From Candidatus Latescibacterota bacterium (lineage in GTDB: Bacteria; Latescibacterota; UBA2968; UBA8231): a stretch of DNA of 64,000 nucleotides. Made by a program: the position numbers and the translations under genes. The notes below the pieces were generated by a model. That model did no database searches and was not told the DNA's origin. It saw nothing but the letters and a program-made list of their open reading frames with translations. Positions 3,565 to 57,849 of the stretch are shown one piece after another. The first letter of the stretch is position 1. Each line of letters begins with the position of its first letter. The stretch lies in assembly GCA_965248265.1 (NCBI GenBank), contig CBDFJF010000002.1, positions 2,720,001 to 2,784,000 on the forward strand, read 5' to 3'.

Positions 3565-4060
3565 TTATGAGCGCGGGATCTGCTCGATCCATATGCAGTC
3601 CGAGGAGAAGCGTTCCGGCAGGGAAATGTCCAGGCCGTGTGTCATCAGGTCGCTACCGCTGCAGGTCTGCGAGGCAACCGAACCGTCTTCGGATGTGATG
3701 TGGTAAAGGCGCTTTGCCCCAAGGCCGCGCAGGACTACCTGTTGCCTCGGTGAGGGGTTATCGGGGCGGAATACGATCACTGCCCCGACATGGGATTCGG
3801 GATCGTAGTACTGCATGCCGTCCCACGTCTTCTCGTCCGGTCGTGGCAGGACCCTGTACAGGTTGCCGTCAGCGATCAAGGGGCGAAGCTCCCCAAGTTT
3901 TGCCGGGTTTCTCCTCCGATCACCTGCATATGCTGCTCACCGCTGTTCCGATTTCTGAGGTCGCATCTCCAGGCCCCGAGAAGGTAGTGCACTTGGTAGC
4001 TCGCCTCGCAGAACGTGGAGCCCTCGAGGTCCGACTTCTGAACCCGTATGCCATCGCATA
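3565..4060 (-). pseudogene. Degraded 3' fragment of a GH36-like alpha-galactosidase
   Basis: GNLYRVLPRPD..WDGMQYYDP...VIVFRP...LRGL resembles the GH36 C-terminal domain; upstream part frameshifted, no N-terminus. Confidence 0.5.
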
Positions 4061-4271
4061 GGACCAACAAGTCTGGATCATGAACCACTTGGGAATCGAC
4101 TGCCTGTCACTGCTCAGTTTCGAGCGCTAGCCCTTGCCGCGATGGCAGTCATAGTGCGGGGACACACGTCTGAGTAGCCTCATCGTTGTTCAGAATCACG
4201 AGAAGGTGACCATCACATCCATACAACGATTCCCGCCCCATCCCAAGCGCGCGCATAGACAAGCGGTAACA

Positions 4272-4277
4272 TGTCAA
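4272..4277 (-). promoter_or_regulatory. -35 box TTGACA in IS110 right end (half of circle-junction promoter)
   Basis: TTGACA 13 nt inside the CT core; same in copy at 44559-44564. Confidence 0.8.
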
Positions 4278-4308
4278 CACCGATCGTGGGCAAATATCGA
4301 GTCTCCGT

Positions 4309-5499
4309 TCAGTTGAGGATAGGTGTGTAGGGACGATTGTTCTTGAGGACGCTGAAGACGACGTGGAGCATCTTGTTGGCGACATGAGTGAGCGCGACGA
4401 GATGGTGCTTGCCGCGATCAATGTGTCGCTGATAGACCTGGGTGAAGAGGGGGTCATGGCTCTTGAAGACGGCGATCTCTGAGGCTTGCATGACGGCGGT
4501 GCGCAGGTAGCGACTGCCGCGCTTGGACATTCTGCCGCGACCGACCAGATCGCCGCTGTCGAACTGCTTGACGTCGAGGCCAGCGGTGGCGACGAATTTG
4601 CGAGCACCATGCTGATCCTCGGGATGAAACACGGGCAGGATCTCGGCCAGGATGGTGGGTGCCCACACGGGCCCCAGACCTGGGACGGAGCGCAGAAGGC
4701 ACTGCTGCTCGGTCACGAGATCTTGCAGTTGTTCGTCGAGTTGAGCGATCTGTTCGATGAGGAGGTTGACGCGCTCCATGACGAAGCGAATCTCCAGGGA
4801 CAAGTGCTGACTGCGATGAGTGAGGGCGAAGGAGTTTTTAGCGGAGGCCTTCAAGGCTTGTGCCTGGTCTCGTCCGAAGGCTCCCCGACTGGCGTCCTTC
4901 AACAGACGCGTCAGGCGGCGGATGTCGACGCGGGCCAGGTCCTCAGCGGTGGGAAACTGTGCCAGCACGGCTCGACTGGAGGCACCGAAGAGATCGGAGA
5001 AGTGCTGCCCGTATTCGGGAAAAGCCAAGTCGAGGAGGCTGACGAGATGACCCTTTTGGGACTTGACGGTCTGTGCGCACTGATAGCGCAATCGCGTCAG
5101 ATCGCGCAAGGACTGGACCTGTCGATCCGGGATAGCGCAGACCTTCAGATCGGTCTCCCGCAGCAGATGGGCGATCAGCAGGGCATCGGCGCTGTCGGTC
5201 TTGGTGCCACGGATGGTGATGTTGCGCCGCGCTGCCACGACCAGGGGATTGATGAGGTCAACGACATACCCTGCCTGGACCAGGGCTTCGTAGAGGACCA
5301 TCCAGTAGTGGCCGGTGGCCTCCATGCCGACGCGGATGTCGGCGGCGGGTTGTCCGGTCTCGGCCAGGCGTTGACACAACTGCTCGATGCCCTGGCGAGT
5401 CTGCTCCACGGCGAGATTACGGAAAACAGCCTGAGATTCCTCATCCAACAGCGTGGCGCGATGACTGCGTTTGGCCACATCAATTCCAAGTGTCCACAT
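4309..5499 (-). CDS. IS110 DEDD recombinase/transposase, apparently intact
   Basis: GIDVAK, MEATGHYW, KTDSADA (DEDD); SVPGLG, FDSG (putative catalytic Ser), MSKRGSRYLR; AAGGAG RBS. Confidence 0.95.
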   Translation of the reverse strand: MWTLGIDVAKRSHRATLLDEESQAVFRNLAVEQTRQGIEQLCQRLAETGQPAADIRVGMEATGHYWMVLYEALVQAGYVVDLINPLVVAARRNITIRGTKTDSADALLIAHLLRETDLKVCAIPDRQVQSLRDLTRLRYQCAQTVKSQKGHLVSLLDLAFPEYGQHFSDLFGASSRAVLAQFPTAEDLARVDIRRLTRLLKDASRGAFGRDQAQALKASAKNSFALTHRSQHLSLEIRFVMERVNLLIEQIAQLDEQLQDLVTEQQCLLRSVPGLGPVWAPTILAEILPVFHPEDQHGARKFVATAGLDVKQFDSGDLVGRGRMSKRGSRYLRTAVMQASEIAVFKSHDPLFTQVYQRHIDRGKHHLVALTHVANKMLHVVFSVLKNNRPYTPILN

Positions 5500-5514
5500 T
5501 CGGCGAGCTCCTTG

Positions 5515-5778
5515 ATCAAGTGACCGAAGCTGCCCACGATCGGGGTGACGCCAGCTGGCACATCCTCGTAGCCAGATCAGGGAACGAAGGTCCCGTCAAG
5601 CGGTAAGTGCATGTGCTGGCGCAATGGCGGTCTAAGCCAGAGGACTGAGCCTCGAGTGGAGGATAGCCAACCCAGCAGCTTCGCTGATCCAGGATCGCAT
5701 TGCTGGCATCAGGAAGCAAGCACTGAGAGTACGCAGCTGGTCGCCGTCTCGCGGGGCAGACACACCGAAGTGGTCTGT
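5515..5778 (-). ncRNA. Predicted IS110 bridge RNA
   Basis: 9-bp closing stem (5525-5533/5675-5683) encloses two loops with internal hairpins. Loop 1 has TATCCTCC and GCTTAG (target match); loop 2 has TTACCGCTTG and TACGAG (donor match). Transcript ends are estimates. Confidence 0.8.
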
Positions 5779-5782
5779 ACCC

Positions 5783-5788
5783 ATTATA
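5783..5788 (-). promoter_or_regulatory. -10 box TATAAT in IS110 left end (half of circle-junction promoter)
   Basis: CT-CG-TATAAT; joined ends give TTGACA-tgttaccgcttgtctcg(17)-TATAAT. Confidence 0.8.
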
Positions 5789-5790
5789 CG

Positions 5791-6075
5791 AGTGAGGATA
5801 AACGGCATTACATCGGTAGTCAGTCAAGCGGTTTTTGGGCTTTTCGAGGGCGTTGAGGGTCGTGCTTGTGCGTTGATCGTGGTGCGGTGAACGATGGGGC
5901 AGTGGATAGGTGCCCGGATCAGCGCCTGCGGGCGCCGCGGCAGCTGTCAGCGAGAGATGGGAACGCAGCGGTGTCCGGCCGGTCGGTCTCAGGCGGCAAA
6001 GTCGAACTCGTGTTGGGGATGAGGCCGTGGTGGAGCGATGGGCGGCGCGCGCGACGGTAGACCGACGCCCTCCAG
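5791..6075 (-). mobile_element. IS91/ISCR family-A remnant: transposase C-terminus + oriIS, split by IS110
   Basis: LEGVGLPSRAPPIAPPRPHPQHEFDFAA* then ~200 bp ending GTTTATCCTCA-CT; homologous to 39491 and 48302. Confidence 0.8.
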
Positions 6076-6413
6076 AACGGCGGAATGCGGGGTTGGGGCT
6101 TTAGACGGGCATGCCGAAGGAGAGGGATCCAGGGCTGAGCGTGGTTTTCCCCCTTTTTCGCGACTCAGATGATCAGTTGGGGCGCAGCAGTCCAAGCGCG
6201 CTGCGGTTAGGCCGCGTATTCGAACTCAGCCTGCTGATCGTGCCTTGCCGGAGCAATTGGTGGAGGCCTTGCTGGCAGGCCCACCCCCTCGAGGTATGAG
6301 CGAATCGAGGCAGGCTCAGTCAAGGCAGCTACTATTTTCATCTGGCCGCCGCAGTCGGGGCATTCTGAAACGTCAATTGAAAACACGCGCGCCAGCAACT
6401 CGCACCAGGACAG
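6075..6413 (-). mobile_element. IS91/ISCR family-B remnant (transposase C-terminus 6207-6413 + part of 3' region)
   Basis: SWCELLARVFSIDVSECPDCGGQMKIVAALTEP..YLEGVGLP is the IS91-type C-terminal motif; 6075-6160 matches 49753-49839 and 60244-60306. Confidence 0.85.
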
Positions 6414-6525
6414 GGTCTTCGAGGAACAGCGAGTGTGGATGTTCAAGACAGATCTGATATTCTATCGGAAATGAGGCTTAGCGGCGCAGCTAAGCAAGGA
6501 TATGCAGTGCTATATGGGAAATCCC
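6413..6525 (+). repeat. ~110-bp promoter/leader element, copy 1
   Basis: Similar to reverse complement of 56956-57064 (near-identical over the 3' ~70 bp); TGnTATTCT and hairpin GCTTAGC-N6-GCTAAGC. Confidence 0.75.
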
Positions 6526-8429: not shown

Positions 8430-8643
8430 GCATAGGGAGGATAAACGGTGTTATCGGGAGTCGGTCAAGTGGGTTTTTTTTTGGATTCGATGGTGGTGCT
8501 TGCTGTCGCCAGGGCGCTTGGGTGCCGGCCGTGGGTCGGGTGGGGTGCGATGGGACCGTCGATTCGGCCTTGGGACCGGCTTGATCCGCAATGCCATGGG
8601 TGGTGCCGATGAAAATCTGAGCTTTTGTGATGGACGGCGGTGC
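8430..8643 (-). mobile_element. IS91/ISCR oriIS remnant (family-A variant)
   Basis: GCATAGGGAGGATAAACGGTGTTATCGGGAGTCGGTCAAG parallels family-A ends; inner boundary approximate. Confidence 0.7.
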
Positions 8644-39490: not shown

Positions 39491-39735
39491 GCATAGTGAG
39501 GATAAACAGCCTAAAGAGATCGGTAGTCAGTCAAGCGGTTTTGGGCTTTTCGATTGCGTTGAGGGCCGTGCTTTTGCGTTGATCGTGGTGCGGTGAACGA
39601 TGGGGCAGCGGATAGGGTGCCCGGACCAGCGCTTGCGGGCGCAGCGGCAGCTGTCAGCGAGAGATGGGGACGCAGCGCTGTCTGGGGTGGGGCTCAGGCG
39701 GCAAAGTCGAACTCGTGTTGGGGATCGGGCCGTGC
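39491..39735 (-). mobile_element. IS91 family-A oriIS mini-element
   Basis: Near-identical to 48302-48542; encodes ARPDPQHEFDFAA*; ends GTTTATCCTCACTATGC. Confidence 0.85.
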
Positions 39736-43236: not shown

Positions 43237-43259
43237 AGTGAGGATAAACAGCATTACAT
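43237..43259 (-). mobile_element. Tiny family-A oriIS fragment
   Basis: AGTGAGGATAAACAGCATTACAT, one mismatch to 5791-5813. Confidence 0.7.
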
Positions 43260-43382
43260 ACTCTTAGGCGCAAACAAAGAGGGCTTCTCTTTCAGATATT
43301 CGGAGGTGTCCCATAAGACCCTCAAAGACGTGAGCACCACGTCTGCATCTGAAAAGGAGAAGCCCGTAAGAAATCTACTAAG

Positions 43383-44527
43383 ATGACTTCGGCTGTCCAA
43401 CTCGATCAGGTCCTCGATATCTGTGTCGATGTCAGCAAGAGCAAACTCAATGTCTACTTCGAGATGGGCGATCAGACCGTCGATGACGAGTGGCCCAATA
43501 CGACCCGGCAGATCGAGAAGAAGCTGCGAGCCTGTGGGCGCTTGGCGAGAGAGCACGGCTTCAAATCACTGCGAGTCATCTGCGAGCCTTCAGGCGGATA
43601 CCAGGACAAGCTGTTGCGCACAGCACGACGACTCGGTCACCTGACGGCCTACGTCAACGGCGAGGCGGTTGCCAAATTTCGTGTCGTCGAGACCAATGAC
43701 GGCGGCAAGACGGATCTCAAAGACCCGCACATCATCAATACGCTGGCGCGGCTCAATAAAGTCCTCCGGCATCGAGATCTACCTGAAGAGTATGAGCTGC
43801 TGCGCAAATGCGGCGTCCTCTATGAGAGGGCAGACCGAGCTCTCATGGCGGTGCGCTGCCGACTGCACCGCGTGCTGATGGAGCTGTATTGCGACTTCTC
43901 CTTCACCAAGAGCTTTCTCTACAGCACCTCGGGGCGCGCCTTGATCAGCAGGGGAGCCTTCGGACGAGGCCAGGCACAGGCCTTGAAGGCCTCCGCTAAA
44001 GCCTCCTTCGCGCTCACTCATCGCAGTCGGCACTTGTCCCTGGAGATTCGCTTCGTCATGGAGCGCGTCAACCTCCTCATCGAGCAGATCGTGCAACTCG
44101 ACGAACACCTGCAAGATCTCATGACCGAACAGCAGAGCCTTCTGCGGTCCGTCCCAGGTCTCGGGCCGTGTGGGCACCGACCATCCTGGCCGAGATCCTG
44201 CCTGTGTTTCATCCCGAGGATCAGCATGGCGCTCGCAAGTTCGTCGCCACCGCTGGCCTCGACGTCAAGCAGTTCGACAGTGGCGATGTGGAGGGTCGCG
44301 GCAGAATGTCCAAGCGCGGCAGCCGCTACCTGCGCACCGCCGTCATGCAGGCCTCAGAGATCGCCGTCTTCAAGAGTCACGACCCGCTCTTCACCCAGGT
44401 CTATCAGCGACACATTGATCGCGGCAAGCACCACCTCGTCGCTCTCACCCACGTCGCCAACAAGATGCTCCACGTCGTCTTCAGTGTCCTCAAGAACAAC
44501 CGTCCCTACACACCTATCCTCAACTGA
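43383..44527 (+). pseudogene. Chimeric, frameshifted IS110 transposase
   Basis: N-terminal DEDD domain of a second family (VDVSK, CEPSGGY, KTDLKD) fused near 43946 to the C-terminal half of the 4309-5499 type; -1 frameshift near 44170. Confidence 0.85.
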
Positions 44528-44579
44528 ACGGAGACCAGATATTTGCCCACGACTGGTGTTGACATGTTACCGCTTGTCT
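44528..44579 (+). mobile_element. IS110 right end with -35 box and CT core
   Basis: GGTGTTGACATGTTACCGCTTGT-CT identical to the reverse complement of 4257-4281. Confidence 0.9.
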
Positions 44580-44998
44580 ATACGTCCGGGCAGGACAGTA
44601 ACAGAGCGAGGTTGGTGATCGTGCGAGACAACAAGATGAGGTAGCGTGTGCGAGCAGGCATTGTCGTCTTCCTTTCGACCTGATTGATGCGATTCCGCCG
44701 TCGCCTGGCGCGCACTCAATGCAATGGTGCTCTTTCGCGCGCCAAGCGCTCTGCCGAAAAGCATGCAACCAGCAGAAACTAAACAGAAAACTATGGAACG
44801 AATAGTGGGGTTGGCTCTTAGACGCGCAGCAAAGGCTACGGCGGAGACTTGCCCGACGATCTGCCTCCGAAGCCGCATGTGGGTCCGGATCCGATGATCG
44901 TACGGCCTGTGCGAGTGAATCCGCCTTGACACAGTGCCCATAATGGTCCTTCATAGTGTAGTCGGTGCGAATGTTTCCCGAACGAGGGTTTTCCGACC

Positions 44999-48301: not shown

Positions 48302-48542
48302 GCATAGTGAGGATAAACAGCATTATCGGTAGTCAGTCAAGGTGTTTTGGGCTTTTTCGATTGCGTTGAGGGCCGTGCTTTTGCGTTGATCGTGGTGCGG
48401 TGAACGATGGGGCAGCGGATAGGGTGCCCGGATCAGCGCTTGCGGGCGCAGCGGCAGCTGTCAGCGAGAGATGGGGACGCAGCGCTGTCTGGGGTGGGGC
48501 TCAGGCGGCAAAGTCGAACTCGTGTTGGGGATCGGGCCGTGC
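48302..48542 (-). mobile_element. IS91 family-A oriIS mini-element
   Basis: Near-identical to 39491-39735 with the same two endpoints. Confidence 0.85.
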
Positions 48543-55528: not shown

Positions 55529-55844
55529 GCTTAGTGGTTATAAGGTAGGTTATCGTTAGTCGATCCGGTGTTGTTTTTTCGCTTTTTTCGTGTTGATGGC
55601 GGTCGCTTTGGGTTGACGGTCTTCGAGTGAGCACTTGAGGCTGCGAATAGGGCCGGAGGGGAGTGGCTGTGAACGAAGATGGGATTCACAGCGATGGATC
55701 GGGACACAGCGGTGCCGTTGCTGCGACGGCGAATCGATCTCAGGCGGCGAAATCCAGCTCAGCTTGGGGATTGGGGCGTGCCGGGGCGATCGGCGGTGCC
55801 CGTGATGGCAGGCCGACGCCCTCCAGATAACGAACAATAGAACG
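55529..55844 (-). mobile_element. IS91 family-C oriIS remnant, copy 1
   Basis: SIVRYLEGVGLPSRAPPIAPARPNPQAELDFAA* + 3' region ending TTATAACCACTAAGC; direct repeat of 57394-57710. Confidence 0.85.
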
Positions 55845-57393: not shown

Positions 57394-57849
57394 GCTTAGT
57401 GGTTATAAAGTAGGTTATCGTTAGTCGATCCGGTGTTGTTTTTTCGCTTTTTTCGTGGTTGATGGCGGTCGCTTTGGGTTGACGGTCTTCGAGTGAGCAC
57501 TTGAGGCTGCGAATAGGGCCGGAGGGGAGTGGTTGTGAACGAAGATGGGATTCCCAGCGATGGATCGGGACACAGCGGTGCCGTTGCTGCGACGGCGAAT
57601 CGCTCTCAGGTGGCGAAATCCAGCTCAGCTTGGGGATTGGGGCGTGCCGGGGCGATCGGCGGTGCCCGTGATGACAGGCCGACGCCCTCCAGATAACGAA
57701 CAATAGAACGGGGCTCGGTAAGGGCCGCGACGACGGAGACCGGTCTGATGACCGGTCTCTTGGAGTTTGCCTACGGCAAACTCCCCTTCATTGCGGCCGC
57801 CGCAGGCCAGGCATACGGTAACGTCCACGCGAAACATGCAGCAACCGGG
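57394..57849 (-). mobile_element. IS91 family-C remnant, copy 2 (longer transposase stub)
   Basis: FRVDVTVCLACGGR..MK[insert]VVAALTEPRSIVRYLEG...; ori end followed by GTTC. Confidence 0.85.
57735..57785. repeat. 51-bp double-hairpin insertion
   Basis: GAGACCGGTC-TGAT-GACCGGTCTC and GGAGTTTGCC-TAC-GGCAAACTCC between the MK and VV codons. Confidence 0.85.

What the first reader, a model, noticed from the sequence alone, without database searches (positions are those of the whole stretch)
4251..5815. IS110 bridge recombinase whose RNA appears programmed against the oriIS of IS91/ISCR rolling-circle elements
Seen: the intact IS110 sits in GTTTATCCTCA-CT-ATGC (minus strand), the terminal motif of the IS91 remnants found empty at 39491 and 48302. 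Its left non-coding end has two loops inside a 9-bp closing stem. Loop 1 reads TATCCTCC (5665-5658), hairpin GAGG/CCTC, then GCTTAG (5637-5632). Loop 2 reads TTACCGCTTG (5606-5597), hairpin GGGA/TCCC, then TACGAG (5570-5565). TATCCTC(C) equals the left target, and matches 8/8 at the 8430 variant. GCTTAG is the reverse complement of CTAAGC, exact for family-C ends and one mismatch to CTATGC. TTACCGCTTG equals the left donor and TACGAG is the reverse complement of CTCGTA. Established: IS621 bridge RNAs have this target-loop/donor-loop layout and a CT core, and other IS110/IS1111 members target REPs, attC or Tn21 IRs. Inference: this family parasitises HUH origins, inserting 4-6 nt from the ori end and probably inactivating it. 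I do not know of a description of this target class. Caveat: the left guides stop short of the core, unlike IS621.
Basis: partly seen in the sequence, partly recalled or inferred. Interest (0 to 1): 0.93.

Follow-up and report, generated by a model that had tools for sequence, protein, structure and literature searches.

The report
Bridge-RNA IS110 targeting IS91/ISCR origin ends
A small mobile element of the IS110 family, which picks its landing site with its own guide RNA, is here aimed at the replication-origin end of a different kind of mobile element (IS91/ISCR type): a natural target I could not find described, reached by an already known mechanism.

Summary
Window 4257-5790 (minus strand) is an intact IS110-family element: a DEDD transposase, a 291-nt left end, and CT on both sides. 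It sits inside GTTTATCCTCA-CT-ATGC.

That 17-mer is the outer terminus of IS91/ISCR-like (Y2 HUH) elements. In intact genomic copies it lies about 160-240 nt downstream of the transposase stop. It resembles the ISCR1 and ISCR2 oriIS ends (GTTTAT-N5-CCTATAC).

All 8 right-end junctions of this IS110 in the genome are followed by A[AT][ACG]C. All 4 left junctions follow YTTAT-N5-6. Eight further insertion contexts in metagenome contigs hit the same motif, one identical to the ISCR2 17-mer.

The left end folds into two internal loops with compensatory base changes. The loop guides match their own flanks far better than shuffled flanks (0 of 20,000 shuffles for each guide).

A second IS110 lineage, 24% identical, inserts about 20 nt further in, in the same ends.

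Weak points:
- This copy's left guide fits only with a one-base bulge.
- The 12 best-matching sites in the genome are empty.
- There is no RNA or activity data.
- Inactivation of the origin is inferred, not shown.

Verdict: a real new member of a known RNA-guided family, with a natural target class I found no description of. Interest is moderate.

The parts
4257..5790 (-). IS110-family element (body plus the 3' copy of the CT core); the second CT copy is at 5792-5791
   Evidence: The ends were defined by comparing 4 full or partial copies and 4 right-end fragments in the genome. The strings were read back.
4309..5499 (-). Transposase / bridge recombinase, 396 aa
   Evidence: Pfam DEDD_Tnp_IS110 E 3.6e-39 and Transposase_20 E 2.6e-16. 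It aligns to the IS621 transposase 8wt6, E 9.1e-18, with the GID, EATG, KTDxxDA and RMSKxG motifs matched.
5520..5697 (-). Structured part of the left end (predicted bridge RNA). An outer stem, 5683-5675 with 5533-5525, encloses the target loop and the donor loop.
   Evidence: On the 19-sequence alignment A1, 93.7% of cells are paired against 41-52% when the partners are slid. 14 pairs change on both sides against 4.2 in shuffles, 0 of 500.
5655..5665 (-). Left target guide TATCCTCCACT (5' strand of loop 1, ending in the CT core)
   Evidence: It matches the left target TATCCTCACT with one extra C. In strict register only 3 of 7 non-core bases match. Across 22 non-redundant relatives the figure is 99 of 154 against 58.1 shuffled.
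5632..5637 (-). Right target guide GCTTAG, the reverse complement of CTAAGC
   Evidence: One mismatch to this copy's CT-ATGC and exact for copy c2's CT-AAGC. Across 20 relatives, 68 of 80 non-core matches against 39.4 shuffled.
5595..5606 (-). Left donor guide TTACCGCTTGAC (5' strand of loop 2)
   Evidence: Its first 10 nt equal the right end TTACCGCTTG(TCT) at 4269-4260. It is invariant in the relatives.
5565..5570 (-). Right donor guide TACGAG, the reverse complement of CT+CGTA (core plus the first bases of the left end)
   Evidence: CGAG is invariant in the alignment.
5783..5788 (-). TATAAT, the -10 half of a junction promoter
   Evidence: With TTGACA at 4277-4272, a circular right-end/left-end junction gives TTGACA-17 nt-TATAAT. 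No promoter-like site was found in the integrated state.
4272..4277 (-). TTGACA, the -35 half of the junction promoter, in the right end
5791..5803 (-). Left half of the split target, GTTTATCCTCA plus core CT (3' arm of the terminal hairpin and the spacer of the ori-like end)
4253..4256 (-). Right half of the split target, ATGC (last 4 nt of the IS91-like terminus)
5804..6446 (-). Remnant of the IS91/ISCR-like element: the subterminal ori-side region and two tandem fragments of the C-terminus of a Y2 transposase (ORFs 5989-6195 and 6207-6446)
   Evidence: The 150-nt upstream region is shared with the unoccupied ends. tblastn with the intact Y2 protein hits residues 420-465 at 72% identity.
39491..39507 (-). 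Unoccupied target GTTTATCCTCACTATGC
48302..48318 (-). Unoccupied target GTTTATCCTCACTATGC
8430..8446 (-). Unoccupied variant GTTTATCCTCCCTATGC
57394..57409 (-). Unoccupied end TTTATAACCACTAAGC, the same type as the site occupied by copy c2
   Evidence: genome C2:2777409.
55529..55544 (-). Unoccupied end CTTATAACCACTAAGC
   Evidence: genome C2:2775544.
43239..44584 (+). A 22-nt ori-end remnant (inverted), followed by the left end and N-terminal half of the second IS110 lineage ('IS110-B'), joined to the 3' 635 nt of the first lineage. Its right end is followed by CT-ATAC.

Best explanation
This is an intact, recently active IS110-family element. Its left end encodes a bridge RNA.

Loop 1 of the RNA carries the left guide TATCCTC[C]ACT and the right guide GCTTAG. 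These read the two strands of the 15-17-bp outer terminus of IS91/ISCR-like rolling-circle elements, YTTAT-N5-CT-AWVC. Loop 2 carries TTACCGCTTG and TACGAG, which read the element's own joined ends.

The DEDD/serine recombinase then exchanges strands at the CT core. The IS110 lands in one orientation, 4 nt inside the ori-side end, just after the 3' arm of the terminal hairpin (GATAA-N6-TTATC).

Expression probably comes mainly from a TTGACA-17-TATAAT promoter that exists only in the excised circle.

Shown here: family membership, boundaries, target identity and recurrence, RNA structure covariation, and guide-flank covariation.

Inferred: that the RNA is made; that it and not the protein sets the site; that the split origin no longer works; and that the ori end is used because it is an abundant, conserved, harmless landing pad carried from host to host by another mobile element.
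For: Family. Pfam finds both IS110 domains. The protein aligns to the IS621 transposase with the catalytic motifs matched.

Copies.
- blastn finds a 99.5% identical second copy, an 84.5% third copy, a deleted fourth copy and 4 right-end fragments.
- 8 of 8 right junctions are CT then A[AT][ACG]C.
- 4 of 4 left junctions follow YTTAT-N5-6, always in the same orientation, in four different end subtypes.

Target identity.
- The motif ends about 160-240 nt after the stop codon in 3 of the 4 intact Y2 genes. The fourth has the second IS110 lineage inserted there.
- The Y2 protein has Y2_Tnp and Zn_Tnp_IS91 domains. It is 38-43% identical to the ISCR1 and ISVsa3 transposases.
- ISCR1, ISVsa3 and a third ISCR-like element end 233-242 nt after their CDS in GGTTTATACTTCCTATACCC, GTTTATTCTTCCTATAC and GTTTGAACTTCCTATAC.
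- 42 unoccupied ends with the hairpin arm occur in the genome, against 0-2 in five shuffled genomes.

Elsewhere.
- A metagenome scan gave 23 loci. Two were chance hits (L100, L114).
- Eight distinct left-flank contexts have the same motif. L108's is identical to the ISVsa3 17-mer.
- Y2 fragments lie beside L094, L095, L101 and L112.

RNA.
- Structure: 93.7% of cells paired against 41-52% when slid; 14 pairs with double changes against 4.2 in shuffles, 0 of 500.
- Right guide: 68 of 80 non-core matches in 20 elements against 39.4 shuffled, 0 of 20,000.
- Left guide: 99 of 154 in 22 elements against 58.1 shuffled, 0 of 20,000.
- The junction promoter spacing is 17 nt.

Convergence. A 24%-identical IS110 lineage sits about 20 nt further in at 6 junctions in the genome. 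It is also present beside L108's occupied end.
Against: - This copy's own left guide matches only 3 of 7 non-core bases in strict register. It needs a one-base bulge. Copy c2's left target matches only CCACT.
- Twelve sites that fit best (YTTATCCTCACTAAGC) are unoccupied.
- No RNA run holds the sequence. Contigs of the likely source sample show no empty site and no circle joint.
- Rfam has no match.
- Single-sequence folds are not better than shuffles: z -1.63 and 0.13.
- Only copy c1 has a Y2 coding remnant within 3 kb upstream. c2-c4 sit in solo ends.
- The IS91-type flanking tetranucleotide (GTTC/CTTG) is not seen. The next two bases are mostly GT (15) or GC (12) of 42.
- The loose motif regex alone is not specific: 63 hits against 36-46 in shuffled genomes.
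- Within the ori-targeting group alone the right-guide signal is weaker: 32 of 40 against 26.2, with 68 of 20,000 shuffles as high.
- That these ends act as origins is by homology only.
Confidence: 0.85

Rival explanations
1. The link is more than a landing pad: the IS110 exploits or antagonises the rolling-circle element. In one version it is transcribed from an outward promoter in the ori end and/or carried along when the host element transposes. In another it spreads because it disables a competitor. Variation in the N5 and AWVC positions would then be an arms race with the guides.
For: - The ends carry TTGACT-17/19 nt-TTTATC pointing outward. The ISCR1 PCR1-2 promoter uses the homologous TTTATA as its -10 and is functional (passages of PMC6218425; sequence).
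- The IS110 always points outward.
- Two unrelated IS110 lineages hit the same end.
- The guide-covered positions are the variable ones among end subtypes.
Against: - TTTATC is a poor -10, and the promoter scan found nothing in the integrated state.
- Most ends are empty (42) and most occupied ends are solo remnants.
- Variation in the end may simply follow the specificity of each Y2 transposase.
- There is no functional data.
Confidence: 0.15
2. The IS110 is passive cargo. IS91/ISCR elements pick up DNA next to their ends, so the IS110 merely lies beside the terminus.
For: ISCR elements are known for variable DNA next to oriIS (passages of PMC6218425). Arrays of solo ends exist in this genome.
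Against: The IS110 interrupts the 17-mer. The last 4 nt of the terminus resume after the right end in 8 of 8 junctions, in several end subtypes and in other metagenomes. Near-identical copies sit in different subtypes.
Confidence: 0.03
3. The transposase protein, or DNA structure at the hairpin, chooses the site. The loop matches would then be by-products.
For: This copy's left guide fits poorly in strict register. A preprint on ISPpu10 reports a structural layer of recognition beyond base pairing (abstract only, in the listing). The target lies next to a hairpin.
Against: Guides differ between relatives and track their own flanks: 0 of 20,000 shuffles for each guide. Sister elements with very similar proteins and donor loops, but other loop-1 sequences, sit in unrelated sites.
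Confidence: 0.05

Closest known systems
IS621 / IS110-group bridge recombinases (Durrant et al. 2024, PMC11208160, passages read; Hiraizumi et al. 2024 structures 8wt6-9)
   Same: - DEDD plus serine-domain recombinase.
- CT core.
- RNA in the left end with a target loop followed by a donor loop.
- The 5' strand of each loop reads the bottom strand and the 3' strand reads the top strand, core included.
- A promoter rebuilt across the circle junction.
   Different: - The protein match to IS621 is remote (E 9.1e-18, two stretches).
- The right target guide is 6 nt (IS621: 4).
- Both loops lie inside a conserved outer stem.
- This copy's left guide has an extra base.
- The natural target is an IS91/ISCR-like origin end, not a REP.
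[quoted passage not shown]
   Same: An IS110-superfamily element that inserts at a fixed position and orientation in the functional end of another transposon.
   Different: The victim here is a rolling-circle HUH element without inverted repeats. The site is the origin-side terminus.
IS1111-attC group (ISKpn4, ISPst6) and the REP-targeting ISPa11 (PMC11187229, passages)
   Same: Targets are short, repeated, hairpin-prone sequences carried by mobile or repeated DNA. Selection is guided by an RNA from the non-coding region.
   Different: Those are IS1111-type elements with the RNA downstream of the gene. Only the second lineage seen here (IS110-B) has that layout.
ISCR1, ISVsa3 (ISCR2) and IS91 oriIS ends (PMC6218425 and PMC13181058, passages; sequences)
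   Same: The target lies downstream of the Y2 transposase gene at the element boundary, at a similar distance (233 nt in ISCR1 and ISVsa3). It has the same GTTTAT-N5-C(C)TA-TAC-like pattern. One metagenomic target is identical to the ISVsa3 17-mer.
   Different: The elements here are only 38-43% identical in protein. The last bases vary (ATGC, AAGC, ATAC, AACC, ATCC). No GTTC/CTTG follows. Origin function is untested for any of them.

Membership tests
IS110 family (bridge recombinase elements) | [quoted passage not shown] | tested here: met
   E 3.6e-39, profile positions 1-155 of 155; the GID, EATG and KTDxxDA motifs align to IS621.
IS110 family (bridge recombinase elements) | C-terminal domain PF02371 with the conserved serine | tested here: met
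   E 2.6e-16. RMSKRGS aligns to RMSKAGH of IS621. That this serine is the catalytic one is taken from Durrant's text ('highly conserved serine') and from my recall.
IS110 family (bridge recombinase elements) | No terminal inverted repeats; a short core dinucleotide present on both sides | tested here: met
   CT at 5792-5791 and at 4258-4257. The same holds in copies c2 and c3 and in relatives.
IS110 family (bridge recombinase elements) | Long left end encoding a structured RNA with two internal loops | tested here: met
   The left end is 291 nt. Covariation count. No Rfam family matched.
IS110 family (bridge recombinase elements) | Loop guides complementary to target and donor, core included | tested here: met
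   For this copy: right guide 5 of 6, donor guides 10 of 10 and 6 of 6, left guide only with a one-base bulge.
IS110 family (bridge recombinase elements) | Promoter reconstituted at the circle junction | tested here: met
   TTGACA-17 nt-TATAAT across right end, core and left end, by position count. In silico only.
IS110 family (bridge recombinase elements) | RNA made, bound by the recombinase, and needed for recombination | not testable with these tools
   No RNA run is listed.
IS91 / ISCR family (for the target element) | Y2 HUH transposase with the zinc-binding N-terminal domain | tested here: met
   Y2_Tnp E 6e-26 and Zn_Tnp_IS91 E 2.1e-19 for the intact copy; 16 matches in the genome, 4 with long open frames; 38-43% identity to the ISCR1 and ISVsa3 transposases.
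IS91 / ISCR family (for the target element) | oriIS at the boundary downstream of the transposase gene | tested here: met
   The motif ends 162, 225 and 242 nt after the stop codon in three intact copies (my count on the output). ISCR1 and ISVsa3 give 233 nt. The terIS-tnpA-oriIS layout is from passages of PMC13181058.
IS91 / ISCR family (for the target element) | Conserved oriIS sequence with a subterminal palindrome | tested here: met
   GTTTAT-N5-CT-AWVC against ISCR GTTTAT-N5-CCTATAC. The GATAA-N6-TTATC inverted repeat is seen.
IS91 / ISCR family (for the target element) | Target tetranucleotide GTTC/CTTG next to the ori end | tested here: not met
   The next two bases are GT (15), GC (12), AT (6), AC (4), TC (4) and TT (1) of 42. 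The family here may use another flanking sequence.
IS91 / ISCR family (for the target element) | The end works as a rolling-circle origin | not testable with these tools
   By homology only.

The most novel reading that the evidence does not exclude
A group of IS110 elements, and independently an IS1111-like lineage, are long-standing hyperparasites of IS91/ISCR rolling-circle elements. Their guide RNAs track the variable bases of the origin end. Insertion splits the hairpin from the nick site and silences that copy, and scarless excision could restore it. Because one natural target equals the ISCR2 (ISVsa3) 17-mer, such elements would be natural RNA-guided disruptors of the ISCR elements that travel with antibiotic-resistance genes.
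Probability: 0.3. Interest if true: 0.7.

Novelty: new member of a known kind. Interest (0 to 1): 0.5.

Why it matters
It adds a natural target class, the origin end of HUH rolling-circle elements, to the short list known for IS110/IS1111 elements (REP, attC, Tn21-family inverted repeats).

It gives an independent pointer to which bases of the poorly studied ISCR-type oriIS are the functional end. Transposition of ISCR elements has not been shown experimentally (passage of PMC6218425).

The set of natural guide/target pairs has a 6-nt right guide, an outer closing stem and tolerated bulges. That may be useful to people engineering bridge recombinases.

Two unrelated lineages converging on one 40-bp end suggests real pressure on that site.

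Tried and rejected
- Rfam at gathering thresholds over the whole window: 0 matches.
- Single-sequence folds of the left end: not better than shuffles, z -1.63 and 0.13. I relied on covariation instead.
- Promoter/terminator scan of 4150-5950: 0 sites.
- blastn ('distant') of the whole element against plasmids: no match.
- Sequencing runs: no RNA holder listed.
- Contigs of four runs of one sample laid on 3900-6150: no empty site, no circle joint, only repeat-induced breaks.
- tblastn with the Y2 protein against the 80 genome-contig loci: only L017, where the fragment is the N-terminus and the context is unclear.
- IS110 as cargo: rejected because the terminus is split.
- Chance guide matches: rejected by shuffles.
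- A third IS110 (347 aa, C2:930.3-931.3 kb) beside a truncated end was looked at, but its junction could not be read clearly.
- I did not build a tree. 'Group' here means shared loop and target type, not a proven clade.
- Rows dropped:
  - L100 and L114 (no IS110 loop) from all counts.
  - L017 (truncated after loop 2), L107 (3' part diverges), L101/L103/L115 (contig ends) and duplicates from alignment A1.
  - Identical guide-plus-flank rows from the shuffles.
- Copy c4's left flank is off by one base, which lowers its score.
- Literature searches for a prior description:
  - IS110+IS91+bridge RNA: 3 papers, none relevant.
  - IS110+oriIS: 2 papers, unrelated.
  - IS110+ISCR+inserted: 27 papers. 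From titles and abstracts I saw none on this; several bridge-recombinase papers probably matched on the name ISCro4 (not opened).
  - The seekRNA paper has 0 occurrences of IS91 or ISCR.
- Supplements are closed. Durrant's Supplementary Data 2 (target motifs per guide pair) might already list this motif, and ISfinder notes could not be seen.
- Toleman's ISCR review is not held.
Full report
WHAT IS THERE

On the minus strand, window 4309-5499 encodes a 396-aa protein. It has both IS110 domains: DEDD_Tnp_IS110 at E 3.6e-39 and Transposase_20 at E 2.6e-16. It aligns to the IS621 transposase of PDB 8wt6 at E 9.1e-18, with the GID, EATG, KTDxxDA and RMSKxG motifs in register.

Upstream of the gene lie 291 non-coding bases, and downstream about 50. 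The element starts with CGTATAATGG at 5790 and ends with TTACCGCTTGT at 4259. CT stands on both sides.

COPIES AND JUNCTIONS

The window is G000:C2:2720001-2784000. blastn of the element against the genome found:
- the window copy, c1;
- c2, 99.5% identical (C2:2703913-2705476);
- c3, 84.5% identical (C2:2786738-2788303);
- c4, internally deleted (C2:2652780-2653875);
- four fragments that keep the right end.

In one search all 8 right junctions read CT followed by ATGC, AAGC, AACC, ATCC, ATAC, ATGC, ATCC and AACC. All 4 left junctions follow GTTTATCCTCA, CTTTATAACCA, CTTATTTATC or CTTATCGTTCT.

The nearly identical c1 and c2 sit in different variants of the site. They are therefore separate, recent insertions. 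The orientation is always the same.

WHAT THE TARGET IS

The genome has 16 matches to Y2_Tnp, the IS91-family HUH transposase. Four of them have long open frames. One of these also has the Zn_Tnp_IS91 domain.

In three of the four, the motif stands at the point where similarity between copies stops. By my count on the output, that is 162, 225 and 242 nt after the stop codon. In the fourth, another IS110 is inserted there.

The literature places oriIS on this side of the gene:
- terIS-orf121-tnpA-oriIS in IS91 (passages of PMC13181058);
- a 232-bp oriIS region downstream of rcr1 in ISCR1 (PMC6218425);
- a 17-bp oriIS 167 bp after the CDS in a Sphingobium IS91 (PMC5737581).

The Y2 protein is 38-43% identical to the ISCR1 and ISVsa3 (ISCR2) transposases. 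I read the ends of those elements directly:
- ISCR1 ends in GGTTTATACTTCCTATACCC, 233 nt after its CDS.
- ISVsa3 ends in GTTTATTCTTCCTATAC, also 233 nt after.
- A third ISCR-like element ends in GTTTGAACTTCCTATAC.

The motif here, GTTTAT-CCTCA-CT-ATGC, follows the same pattern. The genome also has a CTTTATCGGTCCTATAC type. The YTTAT is the 3' arm of a small inverted repeat, GATAA-N6-TTATC.

A loose regex for the motif is not specific on its own: 63 hits against 36-46 in five shuffled genomes. With the hairpin arm required, there are 42 hits against 0-2. Forty of the 42 are on contig C2.

The IS91-type flanking GTTC/CTTG is not seen. GT or GC follows in 27 of 42.

Only c1 has a Y2 coding remnant within 3 kb upstream. 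c2-c4 sit in solo ends.

THE RNA

I aligned the left ends of c1 and 18 relatives. On that alignment a structure is strongly supported: an outer stem, a GGGG/CCCC stem, a first stem-loop with an internal loop, and a second one closed by CGCCAG/CUGGCG and GCAC/GUGC.
- 93.7% of cells pair, against 41-52% when the partners are slid.
- 14 pairs change on both sides, against 4.2 in shuffles (0 of 500).
- Every hairpin pair of loop 1 shows compensatory change.

The 6 nt before the closing stem of loop 1 are the reverse complement of CT plus the 4 bases to the right of the insertion. In 20 non-redundant elements, 68 of 80 non-core positions match, against 39.4 when flanks are shuffled (0 of 20,000). 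The signal is weaker inside the ori-targeting group alone: 32 of 40 against 26.2, with 68 of 20,000 shuffles as high.

The 5' strand of loop 1, ending in the CT core, repeats the left flank. In 22 elements, 99 of 154 positions match against 58.1 (0 of 20,000). This also holds within each target group. Clear cases:
- L097: 7 of 7.
- L109: guide TTTCCTCCCT against target TATCCTCCCT.
- L096: guide TTTTTTCCT against target ATTTTTCCT.

Loop 2 carries TTACCGCTTG, which equals the right end, and TACGAG, the reverse complement of CT+CGTA. It is nearly invariant.

This is the IS621 scheme as described by Durrant et al. (passages). It differs in having a 6-nt right guide and an outer stem.

For c1 itself the right guide is one base off (CTAAGC against CTATGC). 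The left guide fits only as TATCCTC[C]ACT against TATCCTCACT. In strict register it matches 3 of 7. For c2 the right guide is exact, but the left guide matches only CCACT.

The guide runs through the core with one extra base.

EXPRESSION

TTGACA at 4277-4272 and TATAAT at 5788-5783 would stand 17 nt apart across a circle junction. This is the arrangement described for IS110 elements. In the integrated state no promoter-like site is found.

No RNA run holds the sequence. Contigs of the probable source sample showed no empty site or circle joint.

BEYOND THIS GENOME

The closest genome contigs relatives are 50-65% identical in protein. They have the same ends and RNA layout. Mostly they sit in other sites, of the type CTCCT-TTCC, with matching guides.

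A pattern from loop 2 found 23 metagenome contigs. Two (L100, L114) were chance hits. Eight distinct left-flank contexts carry the YTTAT/CTTGT-N5-6-CT motif: the L094 group, the L096 group, L104, L106, L107, L108, the L109 group and L110.
- L107 has c1's exact loop.
- L108 is inserted in GTTTATTCTTC-CT-ATAC, the ISVsa3 17-mer.
- Y2 fragments lie next to L094, L095, L101 and L112.

A SECOND LINEAGE

An element with ends ACTCTTAGGCG...CGCCTAAAGAG encodes a 424-aa IS110-family protein that is 24% identical to c1's. Its long non-coding part lies after the gene, and it has an apparent AT core.

It is inserted about 20 nt further inside the same ori ends, in the opposite orientation. This is seen at C2:2689550-2691120 (next to an intact Y2 gene), at window 43250, and at four other junctions. 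L108 has an 88%-identical homologue in the same place. Two distant lineages thus use the same 40-bp end.

MECHANISM AND CONSEQUENCE

Most likely the RNA made from the circle guides the recombinase to the ori-side terminus. Strand exchange at CT then inserts the element 4 nt from the end, between the hairpin and the boundary where IS91-family transposases cut.

That this disables the origin, and that excision would restore it, is inference. So is the reason for the choice of site. I favour a safe, abundant, horizontally travelling landing pad, as with REP, attC and Tn21 ends.

The more active readings are kept as a rival at 0.15: transcription from an outward promoter homologous to ISCR1's PCR1-2, hitch-hiking on the host element, or antagonism.

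Against a very active element: the 12 best-fitting sites, YTTATCCTCACTAAGC, are empty.

NOVELTY

The mechanism and the family are known. I found no description of IS91/ISCR origin ends as an IS110 target. Supplements and ISfinder could not be checked.

I file it as a new member of a known kind with a new natural target class. Interest is 0.5.

Noticed in passing
window 43239-44618 (+); L119 (G000:C2:2689400-2691300): A second IS110-family lineage ('IS110-B'): 424 aa, terminal inverted repeats, long 3' non-coding region, apparent AT core. It inserts about 20 nt inside the same ori ends, antiparallel to the Y2 gene. The window copy is a chimera: IS110-B left end and N-terminal half, joined to the last 635 nt of the first lineage (93.7% identical). 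Pfam finds only the DEDD domain in its 411-aa ORF.
   Followed up: partly
window 39508-39520 (-): The unoccupied end at 39507 carries ctctttaggc between ccgat and GTTTATCC. These are the first 10 bases of the IS110-B end, so this may be a scar of a lost IS110-B copy. A similar nested remnant is at C2:1904943-1905063.
   Followed up: no
G000:C2:1134287-1156245: Ten near-identical ori-like ends (CTTATCCTCACTAAGC) lie within 22 kb, one of them with the terminal 16-mer doubled 2 nt apart (C2:1156227 and 1156245). All are unoccupied, although they fit c1's guides best. This may be an array made by one-ended transposition.
   Followed up: no
window 5823-5832 and 39530-39539 (-), compared with 5595-5604 (-): The 10-mer ACCGCTTGAC of the donor loop also stands in the subterminal region of some ori ends, about 30 nt from the insertion site. 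There are 3 matches in the window against 0.19 expected. It could be coincidence through a shared TTGAC, or a second contact.
   Followed up: partly
window 5622, loose end in the contigs of runs X1-X4: A contig identical to c1 on the donor-loop side continues into a different loop 1, with right guide GTATAG (target CTATAC). This suggests a guide-swapped sibling in the same sample.
   Followed up: no
G000:C2:929000-932300: A third, unrelated IS110 (347 aa) lies next to a truncated ori end and a Y2 remnant, with a 103-nt tandem duplication at its right side. The junction is not resolved.
   Followed up: partly
L013, L014, L093, L097, L098, L099, L102, L105, L113: Sister elements with the same donor loop target CTCCT-TTCC-type sites. 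In L014 and L099 the site is the ribosome-binding region of an opposite-strand gene. Those two share the left flank but not the right flank.
   Followed up: no
window 5989-6446 (-): Two tandem fragments of the C-terminus of a Y2 transposase, both ending ...GVGLP.R.PPIAP..., lie upstream of the occupied end.
   Followed up: no
L017 3342-3635: In a Latescibacterota genome a truncated relative lies right after the N-terminal part (residues 17-114) of a Y2 transposase gene, not after an ori end. The context is unexplained.
   Followed up: no
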